From NCBI RefSeq assembly GCF_057098645.1, contig NZ_CM169472.1: a DNA stretch of 64,000 nt, one strand, 5' to 3'. Position numbers: made by a program. Shown piece after piece: positions 1 to 12,000 of the stretch (positions are counted from its first letter, which is position 1; every line of letters starts with the position of its first letter).

Positions 1-3000
1 CCGGCGGTTCCCCTTCTCCTTGCGTTGACGTCACCACGATAAGCAGTTTTTCGCTGGCGATTTGTTTGAATTTATAGTCGCCCGCGTTCACCAGCTTAAC
101 GTTCAGTTTTGCCGCTAATAAATCATCACGTAATGCTTCAGCAACCCGGCGCGCATTGCCGGTTTGCGAGGCGGAGATAATAGTTATACCCGGCATTTCT
201 GCGGCGGGAGCTGGCGTCGCTGCAAGCGCAGCAGGCTGCTGATTGAGCACGCCCCAGAAATAGCCAGAAACCCAGGCAAGCTGGGTGGGAGTTAAATCGG
301 TCGTGGCCGCCTGAAGGCGTGCCAGTTGCTCCGGGTTCAACGGAAGCAACGCGGAAGGTGGGACCTGTGTCGTCATGCGTCGTTATGTTCCAGTAAGCAA
401 AGCTGTTTCTGCGCCCTGTCAGCGCCCATAAAACAGAAGAGAAGGTAAGGTTAACGGGGTGAACGGTGTGGATTAAAGACGGGATAGCGATAACTAATAA
501 CCAAATCGACTAACCTGTTTTAGCAATAGTCTTTAACAACAAAATAGATTAACCAACCTAATGAAAAACAAATGAATTTAGCCAATCATTAAGATAAATC
601 AGCGATTTTGCGCAACAAAGTCGTTTTAGATAATGCGAAAAAACAGCCTTTCCGGTACTCTACGGCGGTTTTATCGTCCTGTAGAGAAATTATGATGTCC
701 ACCACGTTATTTAAAGATTTCACCTTCGAAGCCGCTCACCGCTTACCACACGTCCCGGAAGGGCATAAATGTGGTCGCCTGCACGGGCATTCCTTTATGG
801 TGCGACTGGAAATTACCGGGGAAGTCGATCCGCATACGGGCTGGATTATCGATTTCGCTGAACTGAAAGCAGCGTTTAAGCCAACTTATGAGCGCCTCGA
901 TCACCATTATCTCAATGATATTCCAGGCCTGGAAAACCCGACCAGCGAAGTTTTAGCAAAATGGATTTGGGATCAGGTTAAACCCGTTGTGCCGCTGTTA
1001 AGTGCGGTGATGGTAAAAGAAACCTGCACCGCTGGTTGTATCTATCGCGGCGAATGATAAGAGTGTGTCGGCGGTCAATTTCCCTTAAGTAACGCTATGT
1101 TAGGGTGTTGTGTTCTGGATATCTGGGGCATGACATGGAAGACGACTGCGACATTATTATTATTGGTGCCGGTATTGCAGGCACCGCTTGCGCGTTACGC
1201 TGCGCGCGAGCGGGTTTATCCGTTTTGTTACTGGAACGCGCTGAAATCCCCGGCAGCAAAAATCTTTCCGGCGGGCGGTTATATACCCATGCACTCGCGG
1301 AACTCCTCCCTCAGTTTCATCTGACCGCGCCTCTTGAACGACGCATCACTCACGAAAGCCTTTCCCTGTTAACGCCGGATTGCGCAACGACGTTTTCCAG
1401 CTTACAGCCCGGCGGTGAATCCTGGAGTGTATTACGTGCACGGTTCGATCCGTGGCTGGTTGCCGAAGCCGAAAAAGAAGGTGTCGAATGCATCCCTGGT
1501 GCGACGGTGGATGCACTGTATGAAGAAAACGGCAGGGTGTGTGGTGTCATTTGTGGTGACGATATTCTCCGCGCCCGTTATGTGGTGCTGGCAGAAGGTG
1601 CCAACAGCGTCCTGGCTGAACGTCACGGATTAGTGACTCGTCCTGCTGGCGAAGCGATGGCGTTGGGGATCAAAGAAGTGCTGTCGCTGGAAACATCCGC
1701 TATTGAAGAACGTTTTCATCTGGAGAATAACGAAGGCGCAGCGTTGCTGTTCAGCGGCGGGATCTGTGATGACTTACCCGGCGGCGCATTTCTTTATACT
1801 AATCAACAAACGCTCTCGTTAGGGATTGTTTGTCCACTCTCTTCCCTTACGCAAAGTCGTGTTCCGGCAAGCGAGCTGCTGGCTCGCTTTAAAACGTATC
1901 CGGCAGTGCGCCCGCTTATCAAAAACACGGAATCACTGGAGTATGGTGCGCATCTGGTGCCAGAAGGTGGCTTGCACAGTATGCCGGTGCAATACGCCGG
2001 TAACGGCTGGCTGCTGGTGGGCGATGCGTTGCGCAGTTGCGTCAATACCGGAATTTCCGTGCGCGGCATGGATATGGCGCTGACTGGCGCACAGGCGGCG
2101 GCACAAACGCTGATAAGCGCCTGCCAGCACCGCGAGCCGCAAAATCTGTTTCCGCTTTATCATCACAACGTCGAGCGCAGCCTGCTGTGGGATGTTCTAC
2201 AACGTTATCAGCATGTTCCGGCGCTTTTGCAACGCCCGGGATGGTACCGTGCGTGGCCTGCGTTAATGCAGGATATTTCCCGCGATTTATGGGATCAGGG
2301 TGATAAACCTGTTCCACCGCTGCGCCAGTTATTCTGGCGTCATTTACGTCGTCACGGCCTGTGGCATCTGGCGGGCGATGTTATCAGGAGTCTGCGATGT
2401 CTGTAGCCCGTAATCTCTGGCGCGTTGCTGATGCGCCGCACATTGTTCCGGCTGACTCCGTTGAGCGCCAGACGGCAGAACGGTTGATTAACGCCTGTCC
2501 GGCAGGTCTTTTTTCGCTCACACCAGAAGGTGACTTACGTATTGACTATCGCAGTTGCCTGGAGTGTGGCACCTGCCGTTTGCTGTGCGACGAATCAACA
2601 CTACAACAGTGGCGCTATCCGCCTTCCGGATTCGGCATCACCTACCGTTTTGGATAAATAATAAGGATAATTTATGCCCTTCTTACACCTGCTCCGCCAG
2701 AATCCGGTGATTGCTGCCGTTAAAGATAATGCCAGCCTGCAACTGGCTATCGATTCTGAATGCCAGTTTATTTCCGTGTTGTACGGCAATATCTGCACCA
2801 TCAGTAATATCGTTAAAAAGATTAAGAACGCCGGGAAATATGCTTTTATTCATGTCGATTTGCTGGAAGGCGCGTCAAATAAAGAAGTCGTGATTCAGTT
2901 TTTGAAACTGGTGACCGAGGCGGATGGAATTATCAGCACCAAAGCATCGATGCTAAAAGCGGCAAGAGCGGAAGGTTTTTTCTGTATTCATCGCCTGTTT

Positions 3001-9000: not shown

Positions 9001-12000
9001 AAAGTAATCCACCTGAAAGGGCGGCTTACTTTTCTCTTTTTTTTGTCTATTACAAATGGGAATACGATATGCAACACAACTCATATCGCCGTTGGATAAC
9101 CCTCGCGATAATTAGTTTTAGCGGCGGCGTTAGTTTCGACCTGGCTTATTTACGTTATATTTATCAAATTCCCATGGCGAAATTTATGGGATTCAGCAAT
9201 ACCGAGATAGGTTTAATAATGAGTACCTTTGGTATTGCAGCTATTATTCTTTATGCCCCCAGCGGCGTTATTGCCGATAAATTCTCACATCGCAAAATGA
9301 TTACTTCCGCGATGATCATTACCGGATTACTGGGTCTGTTAATGGCAACGTATCCACCGCTGTGGGTAATGCTCTGTATTCAGGTCGCATTTGCGATAAC
9401 GACGATTTTAATGCTGTGGTCGGTGTCGATTAAAGCCGCATCGTTGCTTGGCGATCATAGCGAGCAAGGGAAAATTATGGGCTGGATGGAAGGGCTGCGC
9501 GGCGTCGGTGTAATGTCGCTGGCGGTGTTTACCATGTGGGTCTTTTCTCGCTTTGCACCGGATGACAGCGCCAGCCTAAAAACGGTCATAATTATCTACA
9601 GTGTGGTTTACATCTTGTTGGGGATTCTGTGCTGGTTTTTTGTTAGCGATAACAACAACCTGCGCAGTGCCAATAACGAAGAAAAACAATCATTCCAGCT
9701 TAGCGACATCCTGGCCGTTTTGCGCATCAGCACCACCTGGTATTGCAGCATGGTGATTTTTGGTGTCTTCACCATCTACGCCATTCTGAGTTACTCCACC
9801 AACTATCTGACCGAAATGTATGGCATGTCGCTGGTGGCGGCGAGCTACATGGGGATTGTGATCAACAAAATCTTCCGCGCGCTGTGCGGCCCACTTGGCG
9901 GCATTATCACCACCTACAGTAAAGTGAAATCCCCTACCCGCGTGATCCAAATCCTTTCCGTACTCGGCCTGCTGGCGTTAACTGCCCTGCTCGTCACGAA
10001 CTCTAACCCGCAATCGGTCGCGATGGGGATTGGCCTGATTTTACTGCTGGGATTCACCTGTTACGCCTCACGCGGGCTGTACTGGGCCTGCCCTGGCGAA
10101 GCAAGAACACCGTCTTACATTATGGGCACCACGGTAGGTATTTGTTCGGTGATTGGATTCCTGCCGGATGTCTTCGTTTACCCCATTATCGGCCACTGGC
10201 AAGACACCCTGCCCGCAGCAGAAGCCTACCGCAATATGTGGCTGATGGGCATGGCGGCGCTTGCCATGGTGATTGTCTTTACCTTTTTGCTGTTCCAAAA
10301 AATTCGTACTGCTGATAGCGCCCCCGCAATAGCTAGCAGCAAGTAAGCCAGGAAAATTACAGGAGAAAAATCATGTCGAAAAAATACATCATAGGGATTG
10401 ATGGCGGAAGTCAGAGCACAAAAGTGGTGATGTACGATCTGGAAGGTAATGTGGTTTGCGAAGGTAAAGGCTTATTGCAGCCGATGCACACGCCAGATGC
10501 CGATACCGCAGAACATCCTGACGACGATTTATGGGCATCATTATGTTTTGCCGGTCACGATTTGATGAGTCAGTTTGCCGGGAATAAAGAAAATATTGTC
10601 GGTATTGGTCTGGGATCCATCCGTTGCTGCCGTGCGTTATTGAAAGCCGATGGCACGCCAGCTGCGCCATTGATTAGCTGGCAGGATGCACGCGTAACGC
10701 GTCCCTACGAACACACTAATCCTGACGTGGCCTATGTCACCTCTTTTTCGGGTTATCTGACGCATCGCTTAACCGGCGAGTTTAAAGACAATATCGCCAA
10801 CTATTTTGGTCAGTGGCCGGTGGATTATAAGAGCTGGGCATGGAGTGAAGATGCCGCAGTCATGGAGAAGTTTAATATCCCCCGTCATATGCTGTTTGAT
10901 GTGCAAATGCCAGGCACTGTTCTTGGACAGATCACACCTCAAGCCGCGCTGGCGACACATTTCCCGACAGGGCTGCCGGTTGTTTGTACCACCAGTGATA
11001 AACCGGTAGAAGCTCTGGGAGCCGGATTACTGGATGATGAAACGGCGGTGATTTCTCTTGGCACCTACATCGCGCTGATGATGAACGGTAAAGCACTGCC
11101 GAAAGATCCGGTGGCGTACTGGCCGATTATGTCTTCTATTCCGCAAACATTGCTGTATGAAGGTTACGGTATTCGCAAAGGCATGTGGACGGTGAGCTGG
11201 CTGCGCGACATGCTAGGCGAGTCGTTAATTCAGGATGCCAGGGCGCAGGATCTTTCACCGGAAGATTTACTCAACAAAAAAGCTTCTTGTGTGCCGCCAG
11301 GCTGTAATGGTCTGATGACGGTGCTGGACTGGCTGACCAACCCGTGGGAACCCTACAAACGTGGGATTATGATCGGCTTTGATTCCAGCATGGATTACGC
11401 ATGGATATATCGTTCGATACTGGAAAGCGTGGCGCTGACGCTGAAGAACAATTACGACAATATGTGTAATGAAATGAATCACTTTGCAAAGCATGTGATC
11501 ATTACTGGCGGCGGTTCGAACAGCGATCTGTTTATGCAAATTTTTGCCGACGTGTTCAACCTTCCGGCACGCCGTAACGCCATTAACGGTTGTGCAAGTC
11601 TGGGGGCAGCGATCAATACGGCGGTAGGTCTGGGGCTATACCCGGATTACGCAACGGCTGTCGACAAAATGGTTCGCGTGAAAGATATCTTTATGCCTGT
11701 TGAGAGCAATGCCAAACGCTACGACGCGATGAATAAAGGTATTTTCAAAGACCTAACCAAACATACTGATGTGATCCTGAAAAAATCGTATGAAGTGATG
11801 CATGGGGAATTGGGGAATGCGGATTCGATCCAGAGCTGGTCGAATGCGTAAGTGAGGAAGACCGGGCGGGAAACAGCCCGGCCTGAACATACCTGAATGG
11901 TTATCCCCGCTGACGCGGGGAACATAATAAAAACTTTAACTAGTTCGGTTTATCCCTGTTTTTACAAGGAATATTAACTACACTCGATGTCTTTAGAATA

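What the first reader, a model, noticed from the sequence alone, without database searches (positions are those of the whole stretch)
1135..11851. ygc island: FixABCX-like electron-transfer flavoprotein set with two transporters, a kinase, two oxidoreductases and a GlpP-like antiterminator, pathway unassigned
Ten contiguous genes in three transcription blocks encode a FixC-like flavoprotein (ygcN), a FixX-like ferredoxin (ygcO), ETF alpha/beta (ygcQ, ygcR), two MFS transporters (ygcS, yqcE), an FAD-linked oxidase (ygcU), an SDR (ygcW), an FGGY kinase (ygcE) and a GlpP-family RNA-binding antiterminator (ygcP). Together these look like a complete uptake-phosphorylation-oxidation route for a polyol or sugar acid, coupled to an ETF/quinone electron sink and controlled by antitermination. 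To my knowledge no substrate has been assigned.
Basis: partly seen in the sequence, partly recalled or inferred. Interest (0 to 1): 0.5.

Follow-up and report, generated by a model that had tools for sequence, protein, structure and literature searches.

The report
Antiterminator-controlled orphan catabolic gene cluster
The ten E. coli ygc genes are real and still lack a known substrate, but two of their three operons start with a conserved RNA switch matched to the GlpP-like protein YgcP, and relatives in other bacteria suggest the substrate is a glycerol-like compound carrying a betaine-type group, not a plain sugar.

Summary
All ten genes sit at the stated coordinates in three blocks (ygcNOP +, ygcWUSRQ -, yqcE-ygcE +), in about 93% of complete E. 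coli genomes. I found no published substrate.

New here: the ygcW and yqcE leaders each carry a class II-positioned CRP site, an extended -10 and a ~65-nt RNA element. The element is a 5' box (RGUUACYAGAG), a GAGA-N4-GAGA tract and a strong intrinsic terminator. A covariance model finds exactly these two copies in the 64-kb window. It finds 115 copies in 84 sequences searched, from Proteobacteria, Bacillota and Actinomycetota. The terminator and a mutually exclusive antiterminator helix both covary. The element co-occurs with YgcP homologues (57/1/5/20 loci). Canonical GlpP-controlled glp leaders look related but distinct. The element is absent from Rfam and unannotated in RefSeq.

The cross-phylum core is YgcW + YgcU + YgcE, usually with YgcP. 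The ETF genes are accessory, and the FixCX-like genes occur only in enterics. Outside enterics the transporters are BCCT or ProVWX-type, with MttB-family methyltransferases nearby. YgcU keeps the catalytic Arg, Tyr and HHH loop of alkyl-DHAP synthase.

Best reading: a CRP- and YgcP-controlled route for a glycerol-type quaternary-ammonium compound. The regulatory part is well supported; the substrate is inferred.

The parts
1135..2406 (+). ygcN, FixC-like FAD-dependent oxidoreductase (putative ETF:quinone oxidoreductase)
   Evidence: PRK10015 378 bits, FixC 360 bits, both below cut-off
2397..2657 (+). ygcO, FixX-like ferredoxin
   Evidence: FixX 81.9 bits, cut-off 166
2674..3249 (+). ygcP, GlpP-family (PF04309) putative RNA-binding antiterminator, in a subfamily distinct from canonical GlpP
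3396..4256 (-). ygcQ, ETF alpha-like subunit
4253..5032 (-). ygcR, ETF beta-like subunit
5010..6419 (-). ygcS, MFS transporter (similar scores to aromatic-acid, sugar-porter and organic-cation subfamilies)
6441..7895 (-). ygcU, FAD enzyme of the alkyl-DHAP-synthase type (R262, Y398, H438-H440 conserved)
7965..8750 (-). ygcW, KduD-like short-chain dehydrogenase
8775..8840 (-). ygcW leader RNA element (covariance model hit, 76.8 bits): 5' box, GAGA-N4-GAGA tract, terminator
8782..8823 (-). intrinsic terminator of the ygcW leader: 19-bp stem, 4-nt loop, followed by a U9 run at 8773-8781. It ends 32 nt before the ygcW ATG.
   Evidence: -34.2 kcal/mol, z -7.0
8811..8839 (-). antiterminator hairpin of the ygcW leader: 8833-8839 pairs with 8811-8817, and the loop carries GAGA-UAAU-GAGA. 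It excludes the terminator.
   Evidence: -6.7 kcal/mol alone
8875..8890 (.). perfect CRP consensus TGTGATCGTAATCACA, centred 41.5 nt upstream of the inferred ygcW start (~8841). The extended -10, TGcTAAAAA, lies at 8856-8848 on the - strand.
   Evidence: sequence read directly; predicted in PMC1794230
8932..8947 (.). CRP-like site cGTGATTACTCTCACA, centred 41.5 nt upstream of the inferred yqcE start (~8981). The extended -10, TGtTATTTA, lies at 8966-8974.
8981..9043 (+). yqcE leader RNA element (covariance model hit, 67.2 bits)
8997..9036 (+). intrinsic terminator of the yqcE leader (16 pairs with two 1-nt bulges), followed by a U8 run at 9037-9044. The antiterminator pairs 8983-8988 with 9003-9008.
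9069..10346 (+). yqcE, MFS transporter (anion:cation symporter-like)
10373..11851 (+). ygcE, FGGY-family kinase. Its nearest named families are xylulokinase and AI-2 kinase, all below cut-off.

Best explanation
The ygc genes form a catabolite-repressed regulon switched on by antitermination.

Regulation. RNA polymerase starts at two divergent promoters with CRP sites in the class II position. At each it transcribes a ~65-nt leader that folds by default into a strong intrinsic terminator, so transcription stops before ygcW or yqcE. I infer that YgcP binds the 5' end of the leader when loaded with a phosphorylated pathway intermediate. The bound region is the RGUUACYAGAG box plus the GAGA-N4-GAGA loop. 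Binding would stabilise a weak antiterminator hairpin whose 3' strand is part of the terminator's 5' arm, and so allow read-through into ygcWUSRQ and yqcE-ygcE. ygcP itself lies in ygcNOP, which lacks the element.

Pathway (inferred). The substrate is taken up by YgcS/YqcE in E. coli and by BCCT or betaine-type ABC transporters in other phyla. It is a glycerol-like compound with a betaine-type (quaternary-ammonium) substituent. YgcW oxidises the secondary alcohol and YgcE phosphorylates the primary alcohol, giving a 1-substituted dihydroxyacetone phosphate. YgcU then removes the substituent at C1 by alkyl-DHAP-synthase-like flavin chemistry and yields a triose phosphate. YgcQR (ETF) and YgcNO (FixCX-like) link the YgcU flavin to the quinone pool where present.

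Shown here: gene content, the RNA element, its covariation, its co-occurrence with YgcP, and the conserved catalytic residues of YgcU. Inferred: RNA binding by YgcP, the ligand, the substrate class, the order of reactions, and the direction of electron flow.
For: Terminators in both leaders. The two leaders share a motif that is not expected by chance.

Covariance model R1 finds only these two sites in the 64-kb window. It finds 115 sites at E < 1e-5 in 1.54 Mb of related loci, lying upstream of YgcW (56), YqcE (46), YgcU (4) and BCCT (4) genes.

Antiterminator helix: 93.6% of cells paired, against 15-54% in slid registers. Five of 7 pairs show compensatory changes, and 0 of 500 shuffles reach the observed value. 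Terminator: 93.3% paired, 10 of 14 pairs compensatory. Alignment column 32 covaries with both of its alternative partners.

The antiterminator alone is weak (-6.7 and -1.4 kcal/mol). The terminators are strong (-34 and -22 kcal/mol), so a protein is needed.

The motif and YgcP co-occur: 57 loci with both, 1 with YgcP only, 5 with the motif only (4 of them on truncated contigs), 20 with neither. Fisher p = 1e-13.

YgcP is a full-length PF04309 protein. Canonical glp leaders next to true glpP-glpFK-glpD share the 5' AGUUAnUA box. Three of the four examined also have tandem GAGA tracts running into the terminator.

The core YgcW/YgcU/YgcE is 65-80%, 65-75% and 43-58% identical across phyla. BCCT genes carry the same leader. 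Betaine-type ABC transporters and MttB-family genes recur nearby.

YgcU retains AGPS Arg419, Tyr578 and the HHH loop (residue roles from PMC3509576). Paralogues in the anaerobes have the E-H dehydrogenase motif instead.

CRP sites: read directly from the sequence and predicted independently in PMC1794230.
Against: There is no experimental evidence that YgcP binds RNA or any ligand.

R1 scores canonical GlpP leaders only 15-17 bits, so the resemblance to known GlpP targets rests on a few motifs read by eye in four leaders.

One full-length locus has the motif but no ygcP within 10 kb (L033). One has ygcP but only a weak motif hit (L081).

The co-occurrence statistic and the shuffle controls are not corrected for phylogeny.

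The E. coli cluster has MFS transporters, not BCCT, so the substrate could differ from that of the distant clusters.

AGPS chemistry is redox-neutral, which leaves the conserved YgcU-ETF adjacency unexplained. No natural substrate was tested, and no neighbouring gene names one. The BCCT subfamily could not be assigned.
Confidence: 0.55

Rival explanations
1. A plain polyol or sugar acid is taken up by the MFS transporters and phosphorylated by YgcE. It is then oxidised by YgcU and YgcW, with electrons passing YgcU -> ETF -> YgcNO -> quinone, as in the erythritol or glycerol-3-phosphate routes. YgcP controls the system.
For: E. coli has only MFS transporters in the cluster. YqcE resembles sugar-acid transporters and YgcS sugar porters. 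YgcW is KduD-like (346 bits). YgcU and the ETF genes are adjacent in many taxa. Class II-positioned CRP sites are typical of sugar catabolic operons.
Against: Orthologous clusters use BCCT and betaine-type ABC transporters under the same leader. YgcU has the AGPS-type HHH loop and catalytic Tyr and Arg, not the metal-binding E-H motif of 2-hydroxy-acid dehydrogenases. ETF is absent from complete clusters in several aerobes and in Erwinia and Pantoea.
Confidence: 0.22
2. The leader element is a protein-independent riboswitch that binds the pathway metabolite directly. YgcP is a TIM-barrel-like enzyme of the pathway, not a regulator.
For: The element is highly conserved in sequence across phyla. 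YgcP-like proteins are unusually conserved for a regulator, at 42-72% identity across phyla.
Against: The part upstream of the terminator is only about 35 nt, with a single weak helix. The element tracks ygcP, not the pathway: 20 loci have YgcW/U/E but neither ygcP nor the element. An essential enzyme would not be dispensable in those loci. The family prototype GlpP is a documented RNA-binding antiterminator (PMC9604022), and its leaders have the same layout.
Confidence: 0.07
3. In E. coli the cluster is a silenced remnant. It is conserved by descent but not used, so no substrate exists for this species.
For: Few phenotypes have been reported. A genomic SELEX table marks H-NS in the ygcW/yqcE spacer (PMC3946193). 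A ygcU deletion had no effect in the one study that tested it (PMC13012123).
Against: All ten reading frames are intact and are annotated as intact genes in a near-identical genome. The cluster is present in ~93% of complete genomes. The leader is at least 99% identical in 4872 of 5063 genomes. Promoter, CRP sites and terminators are all preserved.
Confidence: 0.1

Closest known systems
Bacillus subtilis GlpP / glp regulon (glpFK, glpD, glpTQ) antitermination
   Same: The regulator is a PF04309 protein. The promoter is followed directly by a leader with an intrinsic terminator. The 5'-proximal AGUUAnUA box and GAGA tracts run into the terminator's 5' arm. The regulated genes include an FGGY kinase and a flavin dehydrogenase acting on a phosphorylated triol. 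Catabolite control is layered on top.
   Different: YgcP-like proteins are a separate subfamily, 27-37% identical to canonical GlpP but 42-72% identical among themselves across phyla. The RNA element is a distinct variant: the box abuts the first GAGA, and R1 scores glp leaders only 15-17 bits. The host is a Gram-negative bacterium. The regulated enzymes are an SDR and an AGPS-like flavoenzyme rather than GlpD. The ligand is unknown.
Alkyl-dihydroxyacetone-phosphate synthase (AGPS/ADPS; PDB 4bby, 2uuu)
   Same: It is the best solved relative of YgcU (E = 3.8e-56 with a profile). The FAD-binding and cap domains align. The catalytic Arg, Tyr and HHH loop are conserved and invariant in the YgcU family.
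   Different: YgcU is 484 aa and has no counterpart of the first ~180 residues of the guinea-pig enzyme (the alignment starts at AGPS residue 182). It is encoded next to ETF genes and a kinase, in a catabolic cluster of bacteria. The substrate is expected to be polar, not a long-chain lipid.
E. coli caiTABCDE-fixABCX (carnitine) and ydiQRST ETF systems
   Same: Paralogous ETF alpha/beta plus FixC/FixX-like proteins sit next to a catabolic operon. In the cai system the substrate is a quaternary amine and the transporter is a BCCT (own knowledge; fix/cai proteins induced by carnitine in Citrobacter, PMC12482172).
   Different: There are no CoA-transferase or acyl-CoA dehydrogenase genes. The client enzyme is an AGPS-like flavoprotein. 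Regulation is by antitermination.
Lactate dehydrogenase/ETF complexes (LctBCD; PDB 7qh2)
   Same: A VAO-family FAD enzyme is encoded beside EtfB and EtfA. The second FAD oxidase plus ferredoxin-domain ETF in the Photobacterium and Clostridia clusters looks like this type.
   Different: YgcU itself lacks the E-H motif of these dehydrogenases and is a more distant relative of LctD (E = 4e-26, against 3.8e-56 for AGPS).

Membership tests
GlpP-type antitermination system | The regulator is a full-length G3P_antiterm (PF04309) protein | tested here: met
   (E = 1.6e-62, model positions 1-173 of 173); PDB 3kts at 1.2e-27
GlpP-type antitermination system | An intrinsic terminator lies in the 5' leader, between the promoter and the first gene of the regulated operon | tested here: met
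   ygcW leader 8782-8823 plus U9; yqcE leader 8997-9036 plus U8. Conserved in 115 instances.
GlpP-type antitermination system | An alternative antiterminator structure overlaps the terminator | tested here: met
   93.6% of cells paired, 5 of 7 pairs with compensatory changes, 0 of 500 shuffles reach the observed value
GlpP-type antitermination system | The leader resembles known GlpP-controlled glp leaders | tested here: inconclusive
   The AGUUAnUA box is shared by all four canonical leaders, and GAGA-N4-GAGA by three of them, read by eye. R1 scores them only 15-17 bits.
GlpP-type antitermination system | Orthology to B. subtilis-type GlpP | tested here: not met
   27-37% identity to canonical GlpPs, against 42-72% within the YgcP group, even for Bacilli. 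It is a family member but a separate subfamily.
GlpP-type antitermination system | Ligand-dependent binding of the protein to the leader RNA | not testable with these tools
   needs EMSA or in vitro transcription
Alkyl-DHAP synthase (AGPS) | VAO-type FAD-binding domain plus cap domain | tested here: met
   PF01565 + PF02913; profile hit to 4bby at 3.8e-56 and to 2uuu over residues 49-475
Alkyl-DHAP synthase (AGPS) | Catalytic Arg, catalytic Tyr and the HHH loop | tested here: met
   R262, Y398 and H438-440 align with R419, Y578 and H615-617. The AGPS positions were identified from the mutant chains 4bc7 and 4bca. The residues are invariant in A1.
Alkyl-DHAP synthase (AGPS) | N-terminal region upstream of the FAD-binding domain, about 180 residues in guinea-pig AGPS; the review read here describes an additional ADPS-only domain with a gate-keeping helix, whose place in the chain was not mapped | tested here: not met
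   YgcU has 484 aa and the alignment starts at AGPS residue 182. It is therefore not filed as an AGPS, only as AGPS-like.
FixABCX / ETF:quinone oxidoreductase | Equivalog-level match to FixA, FixB, FixC and FixX | tested here: not met
   All scores are below the curated cut-offs: FixC 360/610, FixX 82/166, FixB 59/549, FixA 33/219. They are paralogues at family level.
Named FGGY kinases (XylB, LsrK, GlpK, GntK, AraB, FucK, RhaB) | Score above the curated cut-off of a characterised kinase family | tested here: not met
   Best scores are XylB 141.6/380 and LsrK 137.9/528
Any Rfam family | Match of the leader to a curated RNA family | tested here: not met
   No hit in 8750-9068 at E <= 1

The most novel reading that the evidence does not exclude
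YgcW, YgcE and YgcU form the first catabolic route for the polar head group of betaine lipids, for example glyceryl-N,N,N-trimethylhomoserine from deacylated DGTS. Oxidation and phosphorylation would turn the glycerol part into a 1-O-substituted DHAP. YgcU would then run the alcohol half-reaction of alkyl-DHAP synthase in reverse, as a flavin-dependent ether lyase that releases DHAP and the betaine. A new subfamily of GlpP-like antiterminators, with its own RNA element, would sense the phosphorylated intermediate. The element and subfamily are shared from E. coli to Clostridia and Actinomycetota.
Probability: 0.15. Interest if true: 0.85.

Novelty: new variant of a known kind. Interest (0 to 1): 0.64.

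Why it matters
The ygc genes are among the larger blocks of E. coli core-like genes still without a function.

A cognate, covarying leader RNA turns a vague annotation ('putative antiterminator') into a defined two-operon regulon. The regulon has an easy read-out, namely read-through of two terminators. It also shows that a GlpP-family mechanism, known from Gram-positive glycerol genes, is used in E. coli and across at least three phyla with its own RNA variant. That variant is in neither Rfam nor RefSeq.

The cross-phylum context narrows the substrate search from 'some sugar' to glycerol-like quaternary-ammonium compounds. It also points to an alkyl-DHAP-synthase-like enzyme doing catabolic C-O or C-N cleavage, which would be new enzymology. 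That chemistry would bear on the turnover of betaine-type compounds in gut and marine bacteria.

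Tried and rejected
Literature. Six searches for the gene names and for combinations of the enzyme and transporter families found no substrate or pathway assignment.
- The 'ygcO' in a PTS-Ntr review is a misprint for ycgO.
- ygcU was 1.69-fold induced by D-serine in EHEC, but its deletion had no phenotype.
- The Citrobacter quaternary-amine proteomics paper concerns cai/fix, not ygc.

A third copy of the leader. I looked upstream of ygcN, ygcS and ygcU and in the rest of the 64-kb window and found none. 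BLAST of the leader against E. coli genomes gives a median of two places per genome.

BCCT substrate. NCBIfam could not assign the BCCT transporters to a substrate subfamily; betaine, choline and carnitine models all score below cut-off.

One model for both RNA variants. R1 does not capture the canonical glp leaders (15-17 bits), so the relationship is argued from motifs only.

Listeria GlpP-like protein of PDB 3kts. It sits next to a PFL-like glycyl-radical enzyme, and no comparable leader motif is visible in the 425-nt gap.

Foreign origin. Base composition gives no sign of it: GC is 0.43-0.57 across the ten genes.

Considered and rejected as substrates. Carnitine has no role for a kinase. 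Glycerophosphocholine is already handled by simple diesterases and is not a BCCT substrate. DHPS is anionic and does not fit betaine transporters.

Full report
**What the window is.** The first 14 kb are 99.9% identical to E. coli O145:H28 chromosomes. At least 80% of the stretch is present in 5059 of 5426 complete E. coli genomes. RefSeq annotation of the matching region gives this order: cysJIH, queD, ygcN, ygcO, ygcP, ygcQ, ygcR, ygcS, ygcU, ygcW, yqcE, ygcE, an unannotated 1.1-kb gap, queE. The ORF list reproduces all ten genes at the finder's coordinates.

**Gene content.** The family assignments hold at domain level.
- YgcN is FixC-like and YgcO is FixX-like. YgcQ and YgcR are ETF alpha and beta.
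- YgcS and YqcE are MFS transporters.
- YgcU has FAD_binding_4 and FAD-oxidase_C domains. YgcW is a KduD-like SDR and YgcE an FGGY kinase.
- YgcP matches PF04309 over the whole model.

None of the ten proteins reaches the curated cut-off of any characterised NCBIfam equivalog (YgcP matches no NCBIfam family at all), so these are paralogues of named proteins, not the proteins themselves.

**Literature.** Six full-text searches found no substrate or pathway assignment. The useful items were:
- a predicted CRP site at ygcW/yqcE (PMC1794230);
- a genomic SELEX table listing RpoD promoters and H-NS in the ygcW/yqcE spacer (PMC3946193);
- a 1.69-fold induction of ygcU by D-serine in EHEC, without a deletion phenotype (PMC13012123).

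**The leaders.** The finder proposed looking for a terminator/antiterminator pair. The 318-bp divergent spacer between ygcW and yqcE contains two.
- On the minus strand, a 19-bp hairpin (8823..8782) followed by nine U residues ends 32 nt before the ygcW start codon. It folds at -34.2 kcal/mol, z = -7.0.
- On the plus strand, a 16-pair hairpin (8997-9036) followed by eight U residues precedes yqcE.

The two leaders also share sequence upstream of the hairpins: CAGTTACCAGAGATAATGAGAAAGGTAAC and CAATTACTAGAGACCTGAGAAAAGTAAT. In each, the GTTAC/ATTACT box can pair with the GTAAC/AGTAAT at the start of the terminator's 5' arm. The two positions that differ between the leaders change together.

Each leader begins a few nucleotides after an extended -10 (TGcTAAAAA for ygcW, TGtTATTTA for yqcE). 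A CRP site is centred 41.5 nt upstream of each inferred start: TGTGATCGTAATCACA at 8875-8890 and cGTGATTACTCTCACA at 8932-8947 (read). The start sites are inferred, not measured.

**Conservation of the RNA element.** YgcU is unusually conserved, about 70% identical in Sporomusa, Alkalihalobacillus, Desulfobacula and Photobacterium. I used it to fetch 80 loci from one genome per species. A regex, and then a covariance model built from 20 diverse copies (R1), gave the following.
- There are exactly two strong hits in the 64-kb window: 8775-8840(-) at 76.8 bits and 8981-9043(+) at 67.2 bits.
- There are 115 hits at E < 1e-5 in 1.54 Mb.
- The hits lie upstream of YgcW (56), YqcE (46), YgcU (4) and BCCT transporter genes (4).
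- The hosts are Enterobacterales, Photobacterium, Clostridia, Negativicutes, halophilic Bacilli and Saccharopolyspora.

On the model-based alignment the terminator is 93.3% paired, with compensatory changes at 10 of 14 pairs. The proposed antiterminator helix is 93.6% paired, against 15-54% in slid registers. It has compensatory changes at 5 of 7 pairs, and no shuffle in 500 reaches the observed value. Column 32 covaries with both of its alternative partners, which is the signature of mutually exclusive helices.

Two caveats apply. The alignment was fitted to the terminator, and the sequences are related, so these figures are not probabilities.

**Link to YgcP.** The element tracks ygcP rather than the pathway.
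- 57 loci have both.
- 20 loci have neither, although they carry YgcW, YgcU and YgcE. These are mostly Desulfobacterales and Syntrophomonadaceae, often with a sigma-54 activator nearby.
- 5 loci have the element only, four of them on truncated contigs.
- 1 locus has ygcP with only a weak hit.

Alone, the antiterminator hairpins are weak (-6.7 and -1.4 kcal/mol). The default state is therefore termination, and a stabilising factor is required.

YgcP-like proteins form their own subfamily. They are 42-72% identical across phyla but only 27-37% identical to canonical GlpP, even within Bacilli.

**Comparison with true GlpP targets.** I fetched canonical glpP-glpF-glpK-glpD loci from Priestia and Lysinibacillus. 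All four leaders there begin with an AAGTT(A/C)ATA box right after the -10. Three of them carry GGAGA-N4-GGAGA or GAGTA-N3-GAGA running into the terminator's 5' arm. The ygc element has CAGTTACTA followed by GAGA-N4-GAGA in the same position.

R1 scores the glp leaders only 15-17 bits. The two are similar in layout and motifs but are distinct variants.

The known GlpP mechanism is that the G3P-loaded protein disrupts a terminator placed just downstream of the promoter (PMC9604022). The ygc element has no Rfam match and no annotation in RefSeq.

**What the pathway is likely to do.** The core conserved across phyla is YgcW (65-80% identity), YgcU (65-75%) and YgcE (43-58%), usually with YgcP.
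- ETF genes are poorly conserved (27-39%). They are absent from complete clusters in Halobacillus, Virgibacillus, Saccharopolyspora, SAR324, Erwinia and Pantoea.
- YgcNO homologues occur only in enterics.
- Outside enterics the transporters are BCCT proteins. Four of these sit behind the same leader, so they belong to the regulon.
- Recurrent neighbours are ProV/ProW/OpuAC-type betaine ABC transporters and uninterrupted MttB-family methyltransferases.

This points to a quaternary-ammonium, betaine-like substrate rather than a neutral sugar.

YgcU's closest solved relative is alkyl-DHAP synthase (3.8e-56). Glycolate oxidase (1.2e-36) and LctD (4e-26) are more distant. The profile alignment places three YgcU features against AGPS:
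- R262 on Arg419;
- Y398 on Tyr578;
- H438-H440 on the HHH loop.

The AGPS positions could be identified because the R419H and Y578F mutant chains are in the PDB hit list. All three YgcU features are invariant in the family alignment.

According to PMC3509576, AGPS uses its catalytic Tyr (Tyr508 in the Dictyostelium enzyme, which aligns with guinea-pig Tyr578 and YgcU Y398) to deprotonate C1 of a DHAP ester. The carbanion adds to N5 of oxidised FAD, the substituent at C1 leaves, and a nucleophile then adds.

The second FAD oxidase found in the anaerobes' clusters has the GEHG/SEHG motif instead; I take this, from memory, to be the motif of 2-hydroxy-acid dehydrogenases. So the HHH loop in YgcU is not a general family trait.

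The cluster also has a kinase closest to ketose and AI-2 kinases, an SDR, and a regulator whose prototype senses glycerol-3-phosphate. The simplest scheme is therefore this. A 1-substituted glycerol is oxidised at C2 and phosphorylated to a 1-substituted DHAP, and YgcU cleaves the C1 substituent.

This scheme is inference. It does not explain the role of ETF, because AGPS chemistry is redox-neutral. Either the cleavage is oxidative, or ETF keeps the flavin oxidised under anoxia.

A concrete but speculative candidate substrate is the head group of betaine lipids, glyceryl-trimethylhomoserine. No paper in the library describes its catabolism.

**Verdict.** The inventory is correct, and the genes remain unassigned in the literature I could search. 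The antitermination idea is now backed by a specific, covarying and widely conserved RNA element in two of the three blocks. ygcNOP lacks it.

The substrate guess 'polyol or sugar acid' is probably too simple, and the ETF 'sink' is an accessory module. I rate this a new variant of a known kind: a GlpP-type antitermination system with a new protein subfamily, a new RNA variant and a new regulon, attached to an uncharacterised pathway that may contain new flavoenzyme chemistry.

Noticed in passing
window 11896-12637 (within the unannotated gap 11852-12975): A CRISPR array lies between ygcE and queE. It has four good type I-E repeats (CGGTTTATCCCCGCTGGCGCGGGGAACTC, 60-61-nt spacing) at 12426-12637 and two degenerate copies at 11896 and 11945. 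The region is annotated 'CRISPR' in many other E. coli genomes but not in the closest one. GC is only 0.34 in 12001-13000.
   Followed up: partly
window 3288-3348 (+), between the convergent ygcP and ygcQ: Weak Rfam hit to naRNA4/CssrE (29.8 bits, gathering score 59.5, E = 0.059). It is probably a REP-type element in the convergent terminator region.
   Followed up: no
window 13802-17400 (+): Downstream of queE this strain has a LemA-family gene followed by three TPM-domain genes, as annotated in the matching O145:H28 genome.
   Followed up: no
L004 13187-16591; L063, L064, L068: Anaerobe and Photobacterium clusters add a second FAD oxidase with the GEHG/SEHG motif. Several also add a second ETF pair whose alpha subunit has an N-terminal ferredoxin domain (LctBCD-like). 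This suggests that a 2-hydroxy acid is made or consumed in the same pathway.
   Followed up: partly
L051, L053, L058, L072, L075, L083: Uninterrupted MttB-family methyltransferase genes (374 bits to the TMA methyltransferase model, below its cut-off) lie within 10 kb of the YgcW/U/E core. This fits demethylation of a quaternary amine.
   Followed up: partly
L036 3092-3161 (Limnobaculum eriocheiris): The divergent ygcW and yqcE genes share one palindromic terminator that scores on both strands (50.1 and 36.7 bits). There is no recognisable 5' GUUAC box, only an A-run. It may be a degenerate or bidirectional version of the element.
   Followed up: no
L086 7001-10205 (Listeria monocytogenes): The GlpP-family protein whose structure is PDB 3kts is encoded just upstream of a PFL-like glycyl-radical enzyme and its activase, not next to glpFK/glpD. 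No ygc- or glp-type leader motif was seen in the 425-nt gap.
   Followed up: partly
L002 612-5984 (Alkalihalobacillus oceani): Upstream of BCCT-YgcW-YgcE-YgcU lie genes for an OpuAC-type binding protein, an aspartate-ammonia-lyase-like protein, a betaine-aldehyde-dehydrogenase-like protein and a class III alcohol-dehydrogenase-like protein, plus a sigma-54 activator. There is no ygcP and no leader element.
   Followed up: partly
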